DNA of 64,000 bases from a virus. Positions within the stretch are counted from its first letter, which is position 1; every line of letters begins with the position of its first letter. Positions 54,874 through 59,680 of this stretch are shown piece by piece. Location: positions 1 through 64,000 of the IMG/VR virus record IMGVR_UViG_3300045988_117314; one strand, given 5' to 3'. The translations under genes were made by a program, and so were the position numbers. The notes below the pieces were generated by a model, which worked only from the letters and a program-made list of their open reading frames with translations, was not told where the DNA came from and ran no database searches.

Positions 54874-55881
54874 TCAGACAGCAGCGTTGTTATTGCAACA
54901 TCCGTTGTTACATCCGCATCCGTTATTACAGCAACCTCCTCCGAATACCTGTCCCCAAGTATAAGCCTGGTAAGGAGAACAAGAGGGGTAGGCCGGGACG
55001 GCCGTCGGGCGTAATTGACCAACGATATTCTGGGTTTGTTGCTGAGATAATGCCGAAGCTGTCAAAGCCGCTTTTTCTTCACGAAGTTGAGCAATAGTGT
55101 TCTGCATTTCCCTCATTTCCAACTGACAGAATTTGTCGTTGATCATAACGGTTTGGGCGTCAAGTTTCGCAGACAAGATATTGAATTGGCTTGTAGCTTG
55201 CTCACGATTGTTAGCCAGACCTTGGTTGAGACCGTTCTGCAAGACATTGGTTTGTTCCAACGTGCGAAGCTGGTTATCAAAACCTTGCTGAGTAATCATT
55301 CCCTGAGTCTGGCAAGTGCTTTGATTGATCAACGAACTCAGATTGCAGCAGCAAGAGCTGATTTGATTTCCTATTTCACAACCTTGTTGTTGAACTGCGT
55401 TGATAACAGCCTGAGAAGTCATACCTACCTGACCAGCTACTTTATCAATAGCACCCTGTACGTTGCAGATAGCGTTCTGAAGTTGAGTAGTAGAACAGTT
55501 CAAAGCAGAAGCAATCTGATCTATGGCGCTACGATTACCTTGAATTGCCTGCATCAAAAGTTCACGACCGTAATCGTTATTCAACTGAGCCGGCAAACCA
55601 TTGGCACAACAATCACCGCCATTTCCAAAACCGTTACCGAAGCCGCGTCCACCCCACAGCCAGAACAAAACAATTATCCAGAGCCACCAACCGTTAGCCC
55701 CACCGAAACCGTCCTGGTTGTTACGACCGTTCATCAAAGCCGCCACCAGATTCGGATCCATTTTATTACCACCTATCAAATTAGCAAACATGCCGGGAAT
55801 CATTGAAAGAAGACCGTTAGTGGCTGCACCACCACCGTTAGCCCCGGCTCCATCTAAAAGGACGATTTTATCACCACCCAT
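54874..55881 (-). CDS. Gly-rich N-terminus, Trp-rich TM helix, Gln/Asn-rich coiled region, Cys-rich C-terminus (GGGCCNNGCGCNNGCCNN) membrane protein
   Basis: ORF 54874..55938. Start is probably ATG 55881 (MGGDKIV...) or ATG 55938. TM segment WWLWIIVLFWLW. Confidence 0.55.
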   Translation of the reverse strand: MGGDKIVLLDGAGANGGGAATNGLLSMIPGMFANLIGGNKMDPNLVAALMNGRNNQDGFGGANGWWLWIIVLFWLWGGRGFGNGFGNGGDCCANGLPAQLNNDYGRELLMQAIQGNRSAIDQIASALNCSTTQLQNAICNVQGAIDKVAGQVGMTSQAVINAVQQQGCEIGNQISSCCCNLSSLINQSTCQTQGMITQQGFDNQLRTLEQTNVLQNGLNQGLANNREQATSQFNILSAKLDAQTVMINDKFCQLEMREMQNTIAQLREEKAALTASALSQQQTQNIVGQLRPTAVPAYPSCSPYQAYTWGQVFGGGCCNNGCGCNNGCCNNNAAV

Positions 55882-56003
55882 AATTTTATAGTATTTAATT
55901 GTTAAACATATGTGCATGAAGCACGTAACAAAGATCATGATTGCAGGGTGGAATATGGGTGTGTTTATTTCCTATAGAAGAGAAGTATTTTCAGAAAAAT
56001 AAG

Positions 56004-56039
56004 AAGAGATGAGTAAATATCACCATAGACTCATCTCTT
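56004..56039 (-). terminator. 11-bp perfect hairpin AAGAGATGAGT/ACTCATCTCTT (14-nt loop) followed on the - strand by a U-rich tract
   Basis: Directly downstream of - gene 56064..56717. On the - strand the hairpin is followed by CUUAUUUUUCUG. Confidence 0.5.
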
Positions 56040-56063
56040 AATCACTTTTTATTGTAATAAAAT

Positions 56064-56717
56064 TCAAGCCATGTCACACAACTTGAATTTATATTTATCA
56101 ATTATATCATTCAAATCGCAATCTGATAAGTTGAACCATTCTCTGTATATCCCTTTGATATCAAATCTTGCATGAAGCTCGCTCTCTATATCTTTATTCA
56201 CATAAGCTATTAATGTTAAGTTATCTTCTACAATAGACAACCCAGATAGCCTTCTTTTTACATCAGAGCTTTTACCTATTTTATAAAAACCATTATTATT
56301 ATTTCTTATTATATATGTAAAATATTTTATACATTTTTTATTATACCTATCGATAGATCTATGTATTATATCTAATACCCGATCGTCATTTTTAATATTA
56401 CAACAATCAAATATATCATAAATAAAATCTTTAAATAAAGATCTATCACACTTCATATAGATGATACACAGAATCGATTTGGGGAATAAATAATAGTCAT
56501 GCCTAAATACATGACTATTATTATCTATTATTTGTTCTCCATTATTATCATATCTATATGATATATAATCTATTCCATCCTTAAAATTAAAAGATGATAT
56601 TACATCCTTAATCCAATGTTTAAAATCATACTTACATTCTAACAATTTATGAACATGTTTTGCGTCAATCATTTTTCTGTCGTTTATTAACACAAAAGGA
56701 ATACAAGTATTATCCAT
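56064..56717 (-). CDS. KilA-N-like N-terminal domain fused to T5orf172 (GIY-YIG-like) C-terminal domain; homing-endonuclease-like selfish gene candidate
   Basis: C-terminus GFYKIGKSSDVKRRLSGL...ELHARF...REWFNL matches the T5orf172 signature (YKIG.T.d...Rl..L). Very AT-rich codon usage. Flanked by ~700 bp of non-coding DNA. Confidence 0.6.
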   Translation of the reverse strand: MDNTCIPFVLINDRKMIDAKHVHKLLECKYDFKHWIKDVISSFNFKDGIDYISYRYDNNGEQIIDNNSHVFRHDYYLFPKSILCIIYMKCDRSLFKDFIYDIFDCCNIKNDDRVLDIIHRSIDRYNKKCIKYFTYIIRNNNNGFYKIGKSSDVKRRLSGLSIVEDNLTLIAYVNKDIESELHARFDIKGIYREWFNLSDCDLNDIIDKYKFKLCDMA

Positions 56718-57004
56718 AATAAAAAAAATAGGCCCAAAAGAGAATGTCAGATCCCACTATGACAAACCCTAATGAGCCAAAAATATCTTTCAACATCAAA
56801 CAACCAGAGGTGGGATCTCGTTGTTCATTGTTTCTGGAACAAAGATAGGAACAGGATTTTAAATAACAAATATTTTAATACTTTTTAAAACAAACCAGGG
56901 CCCGCATCACTGCGAACCCTGATCTACACTAATCTAAACTAATACCATGAAAAACTTAAATCTAAAAACTAAAGAACACACAAATGTATGAAAATGTATG
57001 CTTT

Positions 57005-57202
57005 TCACAAAGAATCTGTATCCTGTTCTTTTGTGTGATTCAAGACATGGGATATAGTTCTGATACTTAATCCGGTTTGATTTTGTATCAGATTATAAAT
57101 ATAGGATTTTGAAACTACAGTTCTTAATTGACCTAAATCATTCATAATGTTTTTATACATAAGATGAATGCTGTTGTTACGTTTGATGGTACTGATTCTC
57201 AT
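57005..57202 (-). CDS. small HTH DNA-binding protein candidate (65 aa)
   Basis: TGLSIRTISHVLNH resembles the LacI-type HTH recognition helix (aGVS.aTVSRVLN). ATG 57202. Sits within the AT-rich island. Confidence 0.35.
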   Translation of the reverse strand: MRISTIKRNNSIHLMYKNIMNDLGQLRTVVSKSYIYNLIQNQTGLSIRTISHVLNHTKEQDTDSL

Positions 57203-57356
57203 TTCCTACTGTTATTAGTTACGTTCGGTTCTTACTTTTTCCTTATTTCCATAATCCCTTCCTGAAACTAATATTGCAAACTTAACAAAAATAATTCATA
57301 AACAATGAAAATCTAACTTTTCTTGTATGTTATTGATATACGTGCATATATAAGAA

Positions 57357-57383
57357 AAGTGAGACTTTCACAAGCCTCACTTC
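57357..57383 (-). terminator. hairpin AAGTGAG-(12-nt loop)-CTCACTT followed on the - strand by CUUUUCUUAUAUAUG
   Basis: 7-bp inverted repeat 40 nt downstream of the stop of - gene 57425..59680. Confidence 0.45.
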
Positions 57384-57424
57384 CCAAATTATAACTATGA
57401 AAAAACTATATATATATACAAAAA

Positions 57425-59680
57425 TTACCTGCATTCCAATTTGTTAAGATCATCCAATTCAGACTTGCTTACGGTCATGTCTTGCGTCAAGCCAGATCTG
57501 TTTTGGTATGGAGCGTAATCGGTTTCTACCGTCTTAGCCTTCTGAGTAGAATCGTATTTCACCTCCGATTCGGTTCCTGTCAGATTTTGGTAGATAGAGC
57601 CGGAACTACTTTCGCCGACTTTAGTAAACACTATATCCCCTATTCTGATAAAATTATCATACAAACCTTCTACGATAACATTATCATCCTGCTTAGTTAT
57701 GTTATGATCCCGAACCTCATTTAAGAGATTAGGATGTTTCGTAAAAAGATCGTGATAGAAATCAGAACCGGCATATAACATATCATAATAATCCAAATAG
57801 AACAGATCTGTAAAAGAAGGATCGGTACTGCTCATGCTATACTCAAATAACTGCTCACGATCATTACCTGACAAAGATAGTTCAATTTGTTTTAACGTAT
57901 CCGGATCTGAAACGGTAAGACCCAGTAAATGATCCGGTTTGAAATCAAGATACTTGTATGCCCCTTCATACACTTCTGTATTATGAAGCTTATTTTCAAG
58001 ATAAGATTGGTATAAATCGAATAAGAGTAAAGGATTCTCTTTGTCCTGCTTTCTGTTTATGTATCGGCTAAACTCCCGTTCTTCATTAACATACGGGCTT
58101 CCGGGAACAACAAGATGACCGAATGCCAGTCTGGTAGCATTCATCTCTTCCGTATTCTGAGAATCGGTATAAGACAGGACGTATTTTTTAATAGAATCAG
58201 CAAGGGCCTTACTATCTACGTTTTTCACGCGGAGCTTATCTAAAACACCATCTTTAAAACAATATTCAGGATAGATACCAGGTGGGAAATAAGTTAGACT
58301 CTGCTTGGCAAGCTCGGCAGCCATATCGTACAAATCACTTAAATTATCTCTTTCTACCTTATGATATAGGTTTCCACCAAGATAAAGCAGAGAATGATTT
58401 TCAAATGCCGATACCGGATCTATGTCAGATTCCATATAAACGATATTCATATTATCCATATACTCTGGCAGAAACATAACACGGCTATCCCTGCTATCTC
58501 CAAGAACATCATCAATAGCAGAAGCTAAGGTAGGAGCATAAGTGTCATCGTTGTGCCTTGCTACATAAATATCGAGATCCAACATCAAGCTATCAATTTT
58601 ATTCAGCGATTCTTCTGTTCCGTCGTATGCTTTAGACGCCCCTGCGATATCTATACCAAGACCCACACAAGCCTCTTCTACGTCCCATATCATACTTCTA
58701 AGGTCTTCTTCTGTATCAGCATTAACCCTATTTAGAAAGGCTGATATACGAGCCCGTAATGACTCAGCATTAATAGGGCTATAATAAGCATAATCTTGCA
58801 ACTTTGACAATGACCGTCTCTTCCCTTCTACGATATTATTATCTTCTAAAGCCACAACCGGAACGATGTTCATATTCGAAAATTCGTTGAACATCGACAA
58901 GACAAAACTCTTATCCGACTGATATCTTTCAACTAACTCCGGATATGAATCAGATAAAGATTCGAAAGCAGCATCAAACTCTGAAGCAACACTAATACCT
59001 CCTACTGTATTTTTTATAGCCTCGTAAACTTCAGCCGGATTGTATGATGCTCTCTTTCCTAATTTATTGAAGACGCCATTTTTATACACAACAGGACCGT
59101 ATGGTTTTTCTACGGTTGTGAAGTAAGACTCTTTCCCGAGATCGTGTTCGTTATTAGAATAGTCTAATAATAGCCTCATAAAAGAGCTGACCTCATTAAG
59201 TACAGAAGGATTATCTAATATCCTACTTATTTCCGTCTCATTATACAAACCGGATCTCCTTAGATTTTCTTCATTTAGGATAAGATTGCCATCCACATAA
59301 AAAGAGCTTCTAACTCTATTAATAAGAGATCGTATGCTATATATGGAATTGGATATCATAACATCTCTTACGTCCTTAACATCCTGAGCCGTTAAAGGAT
59401 CGGAAAAATAAGCCTGACGCTTCATATACGACAGCACGTCTTCTAAAAGAGGTTCGCCATTGGGATCGGTATTAAACATCTCCCCTGGAGCCGGGTTATT
59501 CCAATGACCATAATACGACAAAAAATCAGAAGTGTAAGCCTTAGCCCATACCTGAAGAGCCCGCTCGCTATTTCCTAATAATTTTAAGGCACTTTCGTAA
59601 AGAACGGAAGGCTCACCGTTAGGAGCCTCGACCCGTTCTATTTTATTTTCCTTCTTTTCTATCTGACATTTGACACCCAT
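57425..59680 (-). CDS. large protein (751 aa), probable virion/structural protein; function unknown
   Basis: ATG 59680 (MGVKCQ...). The ORF-track start at 59701 is TTG. Asp/Glu/Tyr-rich. Confidence 0.7.
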   Translation of the reverse strand: MGVKCQIEKKENKIERVEAPNGEPSVLYESALKLLGNSERALQVWAKAYTSDFLSYYGHWNNPAPGEMFNTDPNGEPLLEDVLSYMKRQAYFSDPLTAQDVKDVRDVMISNSIYSIRSLINRVRSSFYVDGNLILNEENLRRSGLYNETEISRILDNPSVLNEVSSFMRLLLDYSNNEHDLGKESYFTTVEKPYGPVVYKNGVFNKLGKRASYNPAEVYEAIKNTVGGISVASEFDAAFESLSDSYPELVERYQSDKSFVLSMFNEFSNMNIVPVVALEDNNIVEGKRRSLSKLQDYAYYSPINAESLRARISAFLNRVNADTEEDLRSMIWDVEEACVGLGIDIAGASKAYDGTEESLNKIDSLMLDLDIYVARHNDDTYAPTLASAIDDVLGDSRDSRVMFLPEYMDNMNIVYMESDIDPVSAFENHSLLYLGGNLYHKVERDNLSDLYDMAAELAKQSLTYFPPGIYPEYCFKDGVLDKLRVKNVDSKALADSIKKYVLSYTDSQNTEEMNATRLAFGHLVVPGSPYVNEEREFSRYINRKQDKENPLLLFDLYQSYLENKLHNTEVYEGAYKYLDFKPDHLLGLTVSDPDTLKQIELSLSGNDREQLFEYSMSSTDPSFTDLFYLDYYDMLYAGSDFYHDLFTKHPNLLNEVRDHNITKQDDNVIVEGLYDNFIRIGDIVFTKVGESSSGSIYQNLTGTESEVKYDSTQKAKTVETDYAPYQNRSGLTQDMTVSKSELDDLNKLECR

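What the first reader, a model, noticed from the sequence alone, without database searches (positions are those of the whole stretch)
56041..57424. AT-rich island with KilA-N + T5orf172 (GIY-YIG-like) gene and small HTH gene inside the late-gene block
In an otherwise tightly packed - strand structural block there is a ~1.4-kb island with lower GC and only two genes. One is a KilA-N-like plus T5orf172 fusion, a domain combination typical of selfish homing-endonuclease-like genes of large DNA viruses and phages. The other is a 65-aa LacI-type HTH candidate. About 700 bp of the island are non-coding. Both flanking late genes end in their own hairpin terminators (56004-56039 and 57357-57383). This looks like a horizontally inserted mobile cassette, possibly with its own regulator.
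Basis: partly seen in the sequence, partly recalled or inferred. Interest (0 to 1): 0.6.

Follow-up and report, generated by a model that had tools for sequence, protein, structure and literature searches.

The report
Swappable nuclease cassette beside phage sRNA

Summary
Positions 56041-57424 are the lowest-GC 1.4 kb of the window (27% against 38%). The 217-aa ORF passes the Pfam cut-offs for AntA (not KilA-N) and T5orf172.

The mobile-cassette reading is supported, with different boundaries. Among 82 near-identical genomes the slot at about 55998-56885 is empty in 43. It holds an unrelated Bro-N/KilAC gene in 23 and the AntA-T5orf172 gene in 10. The rest carry TnpB elements, a chimera or a deletion remnant. 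The cassette has its own Bacteroides-type promoter, a pseudoknotted leader shared by three different ORFs, and its own terminator. About 45% of its copies are truncated.

The 65-aa gene is real and under purifying selection, but it is not the cassette's regulator, because it sits in every empty-slot genome. LacI-type membership is not supported.

Between the two genes lies an unreported FopS-like sRNA gene. It has a 17/17-nt seed match (19/19 in a divergent relative), a terminator with compensatory changes and a canonical promoter. A sister clade lacks the whole island.

Homing activity and sRNA function are inferred, not shown. The cassette is a new member of known kinds. The sRNA is the more interesting lead.

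The parts
57354..57385 (-). Intrinsic terminator of the upstream 758-aa virion-block gene (stop codon at 57425)
   Evidence: A 14-bp stem followed by a U tract. The fold z-score is -5.25. It is conserved in relatives.
57277..57293 (-). Two overlapping candidate Bacteroides -7 boxes (TATTTTTG, TAAGTTTG) upstream of the small gene
   Evidence: Motif scan. There is no -33 box at the canonical spacing, so this is only a candidate.
57005..57202 (-). 65-aa three-helix, HTH-like protein gene. It is part of the fixed backbone module.
   Evidence: It is present in empty-slot genomes. Against L082, pN is 0.21 and pS is 0.82, which indicates purifying selection. The motif LS(I/T)RTISHVLNHT is conserved. 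The AF2 model has pLDDT 90 with helices at 3-28, 32-43 and 47-56. There is no significant Pfam, PDB or Foldseek family.
56981..57011 (-). Canonical Bacteroides sigma-ABfr-type promoter, TTTG-N19-TACATTTG, with a predicted start near 56976
   Evidence: Motif scan. The -7 box is conserved in empty-slot relatives.
56884..56957 (-). FopS-like small RNA gene: seed at 56939-56955, 11-bp terminator stem with a GUGA loop at 56896-56921, U tract at 56887-56895
   Evidence: Rfam RF04319 scores 32.7 bits (E = 0.006, below the gathering score of 56) with an exact 17-nt seed match. L082 scores 40.8 bits with 19/19. The fold has a single-stranded seed plus hairpin, z = -4.69. The stem is 97.5% paired with 2 compensatory pairs. 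The element is conserved in 79 of the 82 loci.
55998..56885 (.). Variable cassette slot. In 'empty' genomes it is replaced by about 95 bp of unrelated sequence with its own hairpin.
   Evidence: Occupancy is 43 empty, 23 Bro-N/KilAC, 10 AntA-T5orf172, 4 with TnpB, 1 chimera and 1 deletion remnant.
56840..56870 (-). Cassette promoter TTTG-N19-TATCTTTG, with a predicted start near 56835
   Evidence: Motif scan. It is absent from empty alleles and shared by all cassette types.
56718..56835 (-). Structured 5' leader shared by three different ORFs. Helix 56810-56817 pairs with 56750-56757, which lies in the loop of a second hairpin (pseudoknot). It contains a 28-codon uORF (56710-56796) and a poly-T tract (56721-56728).
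   Evidence: Fold z = -3.09. The structure is 99.6% paired with 3 compensatory pairs, against 32-52% in slid controls. There are 105 IMG/VR loci and 62 metagenome loci, all at this locus.
56064..56717 (-). 217-aa ORF: AntA DNA-binding domain (aa 17-62, nt 56532-56669) plus T5orf172/GIY-YIG-like nuclease domain (aa 133-208, nt 56094-56321)
   Evidence: Pfam and PHROGs. Family-invariant residues are T134, Y135, K146, I147, G148, R156, E178, H182, E193 and W194. There are 1468 relatives at E <= 1e-3, mostly matching the T5orf172 domain only.
56004..56039 (-). The cassette's own terminator hairpin (11-bp stem AAGAGATGAGT/ACTCATCTCTT, then a U-rich tail)
   Evidence: Fold z = -3.27. It is specific to the AntA-T5orf172 cassette. 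The Bro-N cassette carries a different hairpin.

Best explanation
The island is a layered accessory locus between two virion-gene transcription units of a crAss-like phage that infects Bacteroidales.

Layer 1 (56886-57424) is fixed in this clade. It holds a small HTH-like protein gene followed, with no terminator in between, by an sRNA gene. That gene has the FopS seed, its own canonical host-type promoter and a Rho-independent terminator.

Layer 2 (about 55998-56885) is a self-contained, exchangeable unit: a host-type promoter, a 118-nt pseudoknotted leader, an ORF and a terminator. In this window the ORF fuses an AntA-type DNA-binding domain to a T5orf172 (GIY-YIG superfamily) nuclease domain. 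This is the architecture of free-standing homing endonuclease genes.

The most likely mode of action is as follows. The protein binds and cuts the cassette-less or alternative allele of a co-infecting relative. Recombinational repair then copies the cassette together with a few hundred bases of flank.

Shown: the anatomy, the domain assignments, the population polymorphism, the short linked flanks and the frequent truncated copies.

Inferred: nuclease activity, the target site, homing itself, and expression of any of the three units.

The confidence of 0.55 is for the whole statement including homing. The anatomy and the exchangeability of the cassette alone would rate about 0.9.
For: - Domains pass the Pfam cut-offs, and the GIY-YIG-equivalent Tyr, Gly, Arg and Glu residues are invariant in the family.
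- The gene is replaced exactly from the ATG to the terminator between 98%-identical flanks.
- There are at least six occupancy states among 82 genomes.
- Canonical TTTG-N19-TAnnTTTG promoters lie in front of the cassette and of the sRNA.
- The cassette-linked haplotype extends only about 300 bp on each side. In tile 55700-55999 identity is 99.9% for cassette carriers, against 98.0% and 96.7% for the other two states. In tile 56900-57199 the values are 99.0%, 98.4% and 93.9%. The difference is gone in the next tiles.
- Every cassette state is found with both deep alleles of the adjacent 758-aa gene (75% and 96-99% identity), so the locus is a recombination boundary.
- About 14 of 30 scorable copies are truncated.
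- T5orf172 genes are documented phage homing endonuclease genes with exactly these signatures: variable presence, decay, proximity to structural genes and position at boundaries of genetic exchange (PMC10448857).
- A sister clade lacks the whole island.
Against: - No nuclease activity or target site has been shown.
- All 29 close copies in IMG/VR sit at this one locus, so there is no evidence of spread to other sites or other phage lineages.
- The slot is more often filled by a non-nuclease Bro-N/KilAC gene that uses the same promoter and leader and is also often truncated. Ordinary homologous recombination in the shared leader and flank could therefore explain the exchange.
- A 59%-identical homologue at the syntenic site in L082 points to long residence rather than repeated invasion.
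- Some truncations may be assembly errors in homopolymer-rich, low-coverage contigs.
- The structure model of the whole protein was of low confidence (pLDDT 66) and gave no fold match.
Confidence: 0.55

Rival explanations
1. The slot is a 'moron'-type accessory position that holds interchangeable DNA-binding effectors: AntA-T5orf172, Bro-N/KilAC antirepressor-like, or chimeras. These serve the phage, for example in competition with other phages or satellites, in prophage induction or in regulation. Alleles are shuffled by general homologous recombination and kept by diversifying selection. No homing is involved.
For: - Three different ORFs share one promoter and leader and start at the same ATG.
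- A chimera exists with a new N-terminus joined to the KilAC C-terminus (L073).
- The Bro-N/KilAC allele is the commoner one: 73 of 105 loci and about 46 of 62.
- The gene is syntenic in L082 at 59% identity.
- T5orf172 proteins are known to have been domesticated as regulators or anti-satellite nucleases (PMC10448857).
Against: - Both allele types are truncated in a large fraction of genomes that are otherwise 99-100% identical.
- Half of the genomes do without any cassette. Both facts argue against a strongly selected function.
- There is no PADLOC or NCBIfam match.
Confidence: 0.3
2. The cassette is ancestral and vertically inherited. The polymorphism reflects repeated loss by deletion only, and low GC is simply a feature of the gene.
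For: - L082 has the homologue at the same site with the same low GC.
- Internal deletions and frameshifts are seen (L052/L431 with a 50-aa remnant, L425-427 with 139 aa).
Against: - Empty alleles carry about 95 bp of unique sequence with their own hairpin, not a deletion scar.
- The cassette, the Bro-N allele and the empty state each occur on both deep alleles of the neighbouring gene.
- The cassette-linked haplotype is only about 300 bp long. This requires recombinational transfer between backbones.
Confidence: 0.08
3. The FopS resemblance is fortuitous. Positions 56884-56957 are just the 3' UTR and terminator of the small gene, and the 17-nt match is chance or reflects some other constraint at the DNA level.
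For: - The Rfam score is below the gathering threshold (32.7 and 40.8 against 56).
- The canonical promoter lies 24 nt upstream of the seed, not the 4 nt seen in 75 of 81 host copies.
- The GUGA-loop terminator type is common in these phages anyway.
- Expression has not been tested.
Against: - An exact 17-mer is expected about 1e-5 times in 64 kb, and the 19/19 match in L082 starts at model position 1.
- The seed is invariant while the adjacent spacer carries indels and substitutions.
- The predicted fold has the same architecture as FopS.
- The same seed-plus-terminator design recurs in at least 84 unrelated viral contigs. Two of these pass the Rfam cut-off, and some are relatives of cultured Bacteroides phages.
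- The FopS authors themselves noted the sequence in one phage (PMC11697453).
Confidence: 0.15

Closest known systems
T5orf172-family homing endonuclease genes of ICP1, T5-like and other phages (Barth, Dunham & Seed 2023, PMC10448857)
   Same: - It has a C-terminal T5orf172 domain with the conserved Arg and Glu, fused to a separate DNA-binding domain.
- It is free-standing and sits next to structural genes.
- Its presence is variable and copies are often frameshifted.
- It lies at a boundary of sequence exchange.
   Different: The DNA-binding domain is AntA-type, not the CapR/DUF723/DUF4397 zinc fingers found in 87% of their set. Only one locus and one phage lineage are involved, with no expansion into many sites. 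It alternates with a non-nuclease gene behind a shared promoter and leader. Activity is untested.
Phage 'morons' (promoter-gene-terminator units inserted between conserved genes; concept of Hendrix and colleagues, cited from my own knowledge)
   Same: It is an autonomous transcription unit with a host-type promoter and its own terminator, placed between two genes of a conserved block. It is absent from close relatives and has deviant base composition.
   Different: Here the unit keeps its promoter and leader while the ORF and terminator are swapped. It carries a nuclease of a selfish type.
BRO / KilA-N / AntA antirepressor-type modular proteins of DNA viruses (Iyer, Koonin & Aravind 2002, cited from my own knowledge)
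   Same: An N-terminal DNA-binding module of this group is fused to T5orf172 or KilAC-type C-terminal modules, with domain shuffling between alleles (L073 chimera).
   Different: The KilA-N profile itself does not match, whereas AntA does. No antirepressor function has been tested.
FopS/GibS small RNAs of Bacteroides (Rfam RF04319; PMC11697453)
   Same: - The R1' seed core GUUUUUCAUGGUAUUAG is identical.
[quoted passage not shown]
- The element is about 70 nt long.
- A sigma-ABfr-type promoter lies nearby.
   Different: It is phage-encoded and scores below the Rfam gathering threshold. The spacer and the stem sequence differ. The promoter spacing predicts a 5' extension of about 20 nt in this window and about 5 nt in L082. 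It lies directly downstream of a protein gene, so it may be derived from a 3' UTR, as B. thetaiotaomicron FopS-14 is.
Free-standing GIY-YIG homing endonuclease genes (seg genes) of T4-like phages (cited from my own knowledge)
   Same: They are intergenic and polymorphic between close relatives, and flanking markers are co-converted over short tracts.
   Different: The nuclease subfamily and the DNA-binding domain are different. Co-conversion here is only suggested by a linked haplotype of about 300 bp.

Membership tests
T5orf172 (Pfam PF10544) / MUG113 (PF13455) | Profile score above the curated cut-off | tested here: met
   T5orf172 scores 33.7 bits against 20, and MUG113 scores 35.0 against 22.3, over aa 133-208. 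PHROGs 33921 and 4284 match at E of about 1e-10 to 1e-11.
GIY-YIG nuclease superfamily | Conserved Tyr...Tyr/x-I-G, catalytic Arg and metal-binding Glu on a beta-beta-alpha-beta-alpha core | tested here: inconclusive
   Y135, K146-I147-G148, R156 and E193 are invariant in a 27-member alignment. The predicted secondary structure of residues 133-209 is beta-beta-alpha-beta-alpha-beta-alpha with pLDDT 64-93. However, Pfam GIY-YIG scores 21.1 against a cut-off of 22.6, and neither the fold search nor the PDB profile search gave a significant match.
Homing endonuclease gene | Presence/absence polymorphism at one site between otherwise near-identical genomes | tested here: met
   There are 10 carriers, 43 empty genomes and 23 genomes with another gene among 82 genomes with 98-100% identical flanks.
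Homing endonuclease gene | Site-specific cleavage of the allele that lacks the gene, and super-Mendelian inheritance | not testable with these tools
   This needs biochemistry and phage crosses.
Homing endonuclease gene | Co-conversion of flanking markers | tested here: inconclusive
   The cassette-specific haplotype is confined to about 300 bp on each side. This is compatible with co-conversion and also with any recombinational transfer.
KilA-N (Pfam PF04383) | Profile match | tested here: not met
   There is no KilA-N hit at E <= 1. The N-terminal domain matches AntA (PF08346) at 39.3 bits against a cut-off of 27.
LacI-type HTH (Pfam PF00356) | Profile match to the LacI HTH | tested here: not met
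   There is no LacI hit, and the best hit is Trp_repressor at E = 0.038. There is no PDB sequence hit. The Foldseek top hits are generic HTH regions (sigma region 4, Mu transposase, Hin) at E >= 4. The three-helix model is confident (pLDDT 90), so 'HTH-like' is reasonable and 'LacI-type' is not shown.
FopS sRNA (Rfam RF04319) | Covariance-model score at or above the gathering threshold (56 bits) | tested here: not met
   The window scores 32.7 bits and L082 scores 40.8 bits. Other viral contigs do pass: L392 at 76.8 bits and L301 at 56.4 bits.
FopS sRNA (Rfam RF04319) | [quoted passage not shown] | tested here: met
   The seed identity is 17/17 (19/19 in L082). The centroid fold leaves the seed unpaired. 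The stem is 97.5% paired with 2 compensatory pairs.
FopS sRNA (Rfam RF04319) | Canonical sigma-ABfr promoter placed so that transcription starts at the seed (-7 box ending 4 nt before GUG in 75 of 81 host copies) | tested here: not met
   A canonical TTTG-N19-TACATTTG promoter is present, but it ends 24 nt before the seed in the window and 9 nt before it in L082. A 5'-extended RNA is therefore predicted.
Moron (autonomous accessory transcription unit) | Own promoter and own terminator, inserted between genes that are adjacent in relatives | tested here: met
   The promoter is at 56840-56870 and the terminator at 56004-39. The unit is absent in 43 empty genomes, and the whole island is absent in 76 of 80 sister-clade loci. 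The promoter and terminator are consensus and fold predictions only.

The most novel reading that the evidence does not exclude
The most novel reading that the evidence does not exclude concerns the sRNA. This crAss-like phage, and many unrelated Bacteroidales phages, would encode functional mimics of the host FopS sRNA family. Through the conserved R1' seed these mimics would silence SusC-like outer-membrane transporter and PUL mRNAs during infection, for example to remodel the cell surface, block superinfection or redirect metabolism. In this lineage the sRNA would be coupled to a dedicated small HTH protein. In addition, the cassette's 5' leader would be a new pseudoknotted cis-regulatory RNA.
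Probability: 0.4. Interest if true: 0.75.

Novelty: new member of a known kind. Interest (0 to 1): 0.5.

Why it matters
The cassette itself is a textbook-style case, but a useful one. It gives a well-resolved natural example, from uncultured crAss-like gut phages, of a T5orf172 nuclease gene sitting at a recombination boundary. Empty, alternative and decayed alleles are all available for comparison.

The greater value is the FopS-like gene. FopS sRNAs are central post-transcriptional repressors of polysaccharide-utilisation loci in Bacteroides. The literature held here mentions a phage copy only in passing. The design recurs in a highly abundant crAss-like lineage and in at least 84 other viral contigs, some of them relatives of cultured Bacteroides phages. 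This makes 'phages hijack the host's PUL-control sRNA network' a directly testable hypothesis.

Tried and rejected
- **Alternative genetic code.** A six-frame translation of 56690-57440 with the stop types marked shows many TAA stops in every frame. TAG or TGA recoding would therefore not open a hidden long ORF.
- **tRNAs.** None were found in the window.
- **Group I intron, riboswitch or other Rfam family in 55500-58000.** Nothing was found apart from the FopS/GibS-like hit. The mir-3688 and snoRNA hits are AT-rich palindrome or terminator artefacts.
- **Sigma-70 promoter scan.** It found no more sites than shuffled sequence does, and it is the wrong model for Bacteroidales. I replaced it with a TTTG/TAnnTTTG scan.
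- **AlphaFold model of the 217-aa protein.** The alignment was shallow and the pLDDT was 66. The Foldseek search against the PDB gave no meaningful match.
- **Profile of the T5orf172 subfamily against PDB sequences.** It gave no relative.
- **Foldseek of the 65-aa model.** Only non-significant generic HTH matches were found.
- **PADLOC and NCBIfam.** There were no matches for either cassette protein or for the small protein.
- **Phage targets of the sRNA seed.** No complementary site with up to 3 mismatches exists elsewhere in the window.
- **Copies of the cassette gene or its leader at other loci or in other phage lineages.** None were found.
- **Literature.** No paper was found on csAssE-Sib. 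One literature query (GibS + crAss) was badly specified and gave nothing useful.
Full report
**1. Observation**

The island is real. GC falls to 21-34% across about 55,850-57,350, against 35-50% on either side. Positions 56041-57424 are the lowest-GC 1.4-kb stretch of the whole window (27.4% against 37.7%, z = -3.5). The 217-aa ORF has 25.1% GC and a GC3 of 21.6%.

ORF 56064..56717 (-) passes the Pfam cut-offs for AntA (aa 17-62), T5orf172 and MUG113 (aa 133-208). GIY-YIG falls just below its cut-off, and KilA-N does not hit. PHROGs agree, with anti-repressor Ant families at the N-terminus and T5orf172-type families at the C-terminus.

ORF 57005..57202 (-) exists but has no significant family.

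**2. What phage this is**

The closest GenBank record is phage csAssE-Sib (OR575929, 151 kb, human gut). Its annotation includes a crAss-type 'muzzle protein' and several large 'structural proteins' around the homologous region. The 'late/structural block' label rests on that annotation; I did not verify it independently.

Three things point to a Bacteroidales host:
- Bacteroides-type promoter motifs.
- The FopS-like element.
- The many human-gut contigs that carry this phage lineage.

**3. The decisive comparison**

Against csAssE-Sib the window is 98% identical up to 56005 and again from 56710 to about 57424. Positions 56006-56709 have no DNA similarity at all. At that place csAssE-Sib has a 294-aa Bro-N + KilAC 'antirepressor' gene. 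That gene is unrelated in sequence to the 217-aa protein, yet it starts at the same ATG.

I fetched 80 IMG/VR loci through the neighbouring 354-aa gene and classified the slot in 82 genomes, counting the window and csAssE-Sib:

| State of the slot | Genomes |
|---|---|
| Empty (136-145 bp between the anchors) | 43 |
| Bro-N/KilAC gene | 23 |
| AntA-T5orf172 gene | 10 |
| 323-aa TnpB (L047, L067) | 2 |
| 395-aa TnpB (L044) | 1 |
| TnpB plus Bro-N gene (L038) | 1 |
| Chimera: new N-terminus on the KilAC C-terminus (L073) | 1 |
| AntA-T5orf172 cassette reduced by deletion to a 50-aa remnant (L052) | 1 |

Empty alleles are not deletion scars. They carry about 95 bp of their own sequence with a hairpin. 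The variable unit is therefore about 55998-56885, not the whole island.

**4. Anatomy of the cassette**

- A canonical Bacteroides promoter (TTTG-N19-TATCTTTG, 56870-56840) predicts a start near 56835.
- The 118-nt leader folds better than shuffled sequence (z = -3.09).
- Two hairpin loops in the leader are complementary (56810-56817 with 56750-56757).
- In the divergent relative L082, two pairs of that helix and one pair of the enclosing hairpin are changed on both sides.
- Over 11 variants, 99.6% of cells pair, against 32-52% when the partners are slid. The structure was derived from these same sequences, so this support is moderate.
- The leader precedes three different ORFs and occurs only at this locus, in 105 IMG/VR loci and 62 metagenome loci.
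- Each ORF type brings its own terminator.

This promoter-to-terminator organisation is that of a moron.

**5. Is it a homing endonuclease gene?**

The T5orf172 domain keeps the family-invariant T-Y, K-I-G, R, E..LH and EW residues. T5orf172 genes have been described as phage homing endonuclease genes. Their signatures are variable presence, frameshifted copies, proximity to structural genes and position at boundaries of exchange. Glutamate-dependent nuclease activity has been shown in one case (PMC10448857).

All the genomic signatures are present here:
- The gene is polymorphic between near-identical genomes.
- The cassette-linked haplotype is confined to about 300 bp on each side.
- The adjacent 758-aa gene occurs as two deep allele classes (about 75% and 96-99% identity). 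These are combined freely with every cassette state.
- Roughly 14 of 30 scorable copies are truncated (12 intact and 6 truncated in IMG/VR; 4 intact and 8 truncated in the metagenome set).

Against homing:
- Close copies are found only at this locus.
- The non-nuclease Bro-N/KilAC allele is commoner and also decays.
- A relative with 49-94% identical flanking proteins (L082) has a 59%-identical homologue at the same site with the same low GC. The gene is therefore an old resident, and low GC is a family trait rather than a sign of recent import.

Nuclease activity, the target and the drive are inferred, not shown. The main rival is an adaptive, interchangeable effector slot shuffled by ordinary recombination.

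**6. The small gene**

It is present in all empty-slot genomes and in L082. There the nucleotide identity is 67% but the protein identity is 69%, with pN = 0.21 against a saturated pS = 0.82. Homologues exist only in this phage lineage, with an invariant L-S-x-(R/K)-T-I-x-H-V-L-N-H-T segment.

AlphaFold gives a confident three-helix model (pLDDT 90). Foldseek returns only non-significant generic HTH matches.

The gene is therefore real and HTH-like. It is not demonstrably LacI-type, and it is not part of the mobile cassette. The csAssE-Sib copy, annotated 'lactose operon repressor', is frameshifted after codon 36 relative to all the others.

**7.

A permissive Rfam scan finds FopS (RF04319) at 56884-56957 (-). 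The score is 32.7 bits, E = 0.006 for the 731-nt search, which is below the gathering score of 56. The match includes an exact 17-nt stretch of the 5' seed, followed by a hairpin and a U tract. L082 scores 40.8 bits, with a 19/19 match that starts at model position 1.

- The predicted fold leaves the seed unpaired in front of a strong terminator (z = -4.69).
- The 11-bp stem is 97.5% paired over 11 variants, with two compensatory pairs.
- The seed is invariant while the spacer carries indels.
- A canonical TTTG-N19-TACATTTG promoter lies upstream.
- That promoter ends 24 nt before the seed. In 75 of 81 host fopS-type copies the gap is 4 nt. A 5'-extended RNA is therefore predicted, or one processed from the small gene's transcript, since no terminator separates the two.

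FopS sRNAs repress susC/PUL mRNAs by pairing their 5' seed to translation-initiation regions (PMC11697453). That paper notes the sequence in one Caudovirales phage in passing.

Of these, 84 are outside this lineage and have diverse terminators. Two of 14 tested pass the Rfam cut-off, and some copies abut tRNAs. One large group is related to Bacteroides phage BF1-TP2. The seed is also present, unannotated, in Bacteroides phage BX-TP2.

No complementary site exists elsewhere in the window, so host targets are the more likely ones. That is an inference.

**8. Depth of the island**

I fetched loci through the L082 homologue of the 354-aa gene. In 76 of the 80, only 360-456 bp with two hairpins lie between the two flanking genes. 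There is no small gene, no sRNA and no cassette. One locus (L238) has a TnpB element there. The three loci that do carry the island belong to the window's own clade.

The locus is therefore layered:
- An older HTH + sRNA module, present in the window's clade and in L082.
- A variable cassette inside it.
- Occasional IS200/IS605-type TnpB insertions.

**9. Verdict**

The cassette is a new member of known kinds (a T5orf172 homing-endonuclease-like gene and a moron). The FopS-like sRNA and the pseudoknotted leader are the parts worth experimental follow-up.

Noticed in passing
L047/L067 (inserted just 5' of the sRNA -7 box), L044, L038, L238; csAssE-Sib record 64190-65413: TnpB-only (IS200/IS605-type, 323-396 aa) elements have inserted repeatedly into this same intergenic region in relatives. 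In L038 the insertion separates the sRNA seed from its promoter. csAssE-Sib also has an annotated TnpB elsewhere in its genome.
   Followed up: partly
window 56721-56728 (poly-T on the - strand) and uORF 56710-56796 (-): The T run just upstream of the cassette start codon is 7, 8 or 9 nt long in otherwise identical genomes. With 7 T, a 28-codon hydrophobic uORF (MLKDIFGSLGFVIVGSDILFWAYFF...) is fused in frame to the main ORF. This gives the 243-aa form that is the commonest database entry (P0001). The peptide is not conserved in L082. The variation could be real slippage, a phase switch or sequencing error.
   Followed up: partly
window 57425-59300 (758-aa gene): The gene directly upstream of the island occurs as two deep allele classes (about 65-78% and 96-99% nucleotide identity). 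The boundaries are sharp, at its stop codon and near 59300. The classes are independent of the cassette state. This looks like a hypervariable, possibly host-recognition, gene.
   Followed up: partly
L285-L402 (IMG/VR), e.g. L306, L301, L392, L294: Elements with the FopS seed and a terminator occur in many unrelated viral contigs. In L306 and L301 they directly follow tRNA genes, which suggests that the 5' end is made by tRNA processing. Many share an upstream ATATTAG(A)GTGT motif instead of the host -7 box.
   Followed up: partly
L001 8395-8619 (csAssE-Sib 'lactose operon repressor'): The deposited CDS is frameshifted after codon 36 relative to the window and all other relatives, so its annotated C-terminal half is not the conserved protein.
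   Followed up: yes
window 56981-57000: There is a 10-bp tandem duplication, CATACATTTT/CATACATTTG, at the sRNA promoter. csAssE-Sib has a single copy.
   Followed up: no
L409, L419, L412, L416, L425, L407 (IMG/VR): Several UViGs carrying the cassette have large deletions that begin within or just downstream of it. For example, window 55821 is joined to 53108 in both L409 and L419, which removes the 354-aa gene. These could be defective genomes or misassemblies.
   Followed up: partly
window 54874-55938 (354-aa gene): The downstream neighbour has Gly/Asn/Cys-rich ends (e.g. ...GGGCCNNGCGCNNGCCNNN) and a variable C-terminal part among relatives. It matches PHROG 16490, of unknown function, and is annotated 'spike protein' in csAssE-Sib.
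   Followed up: no
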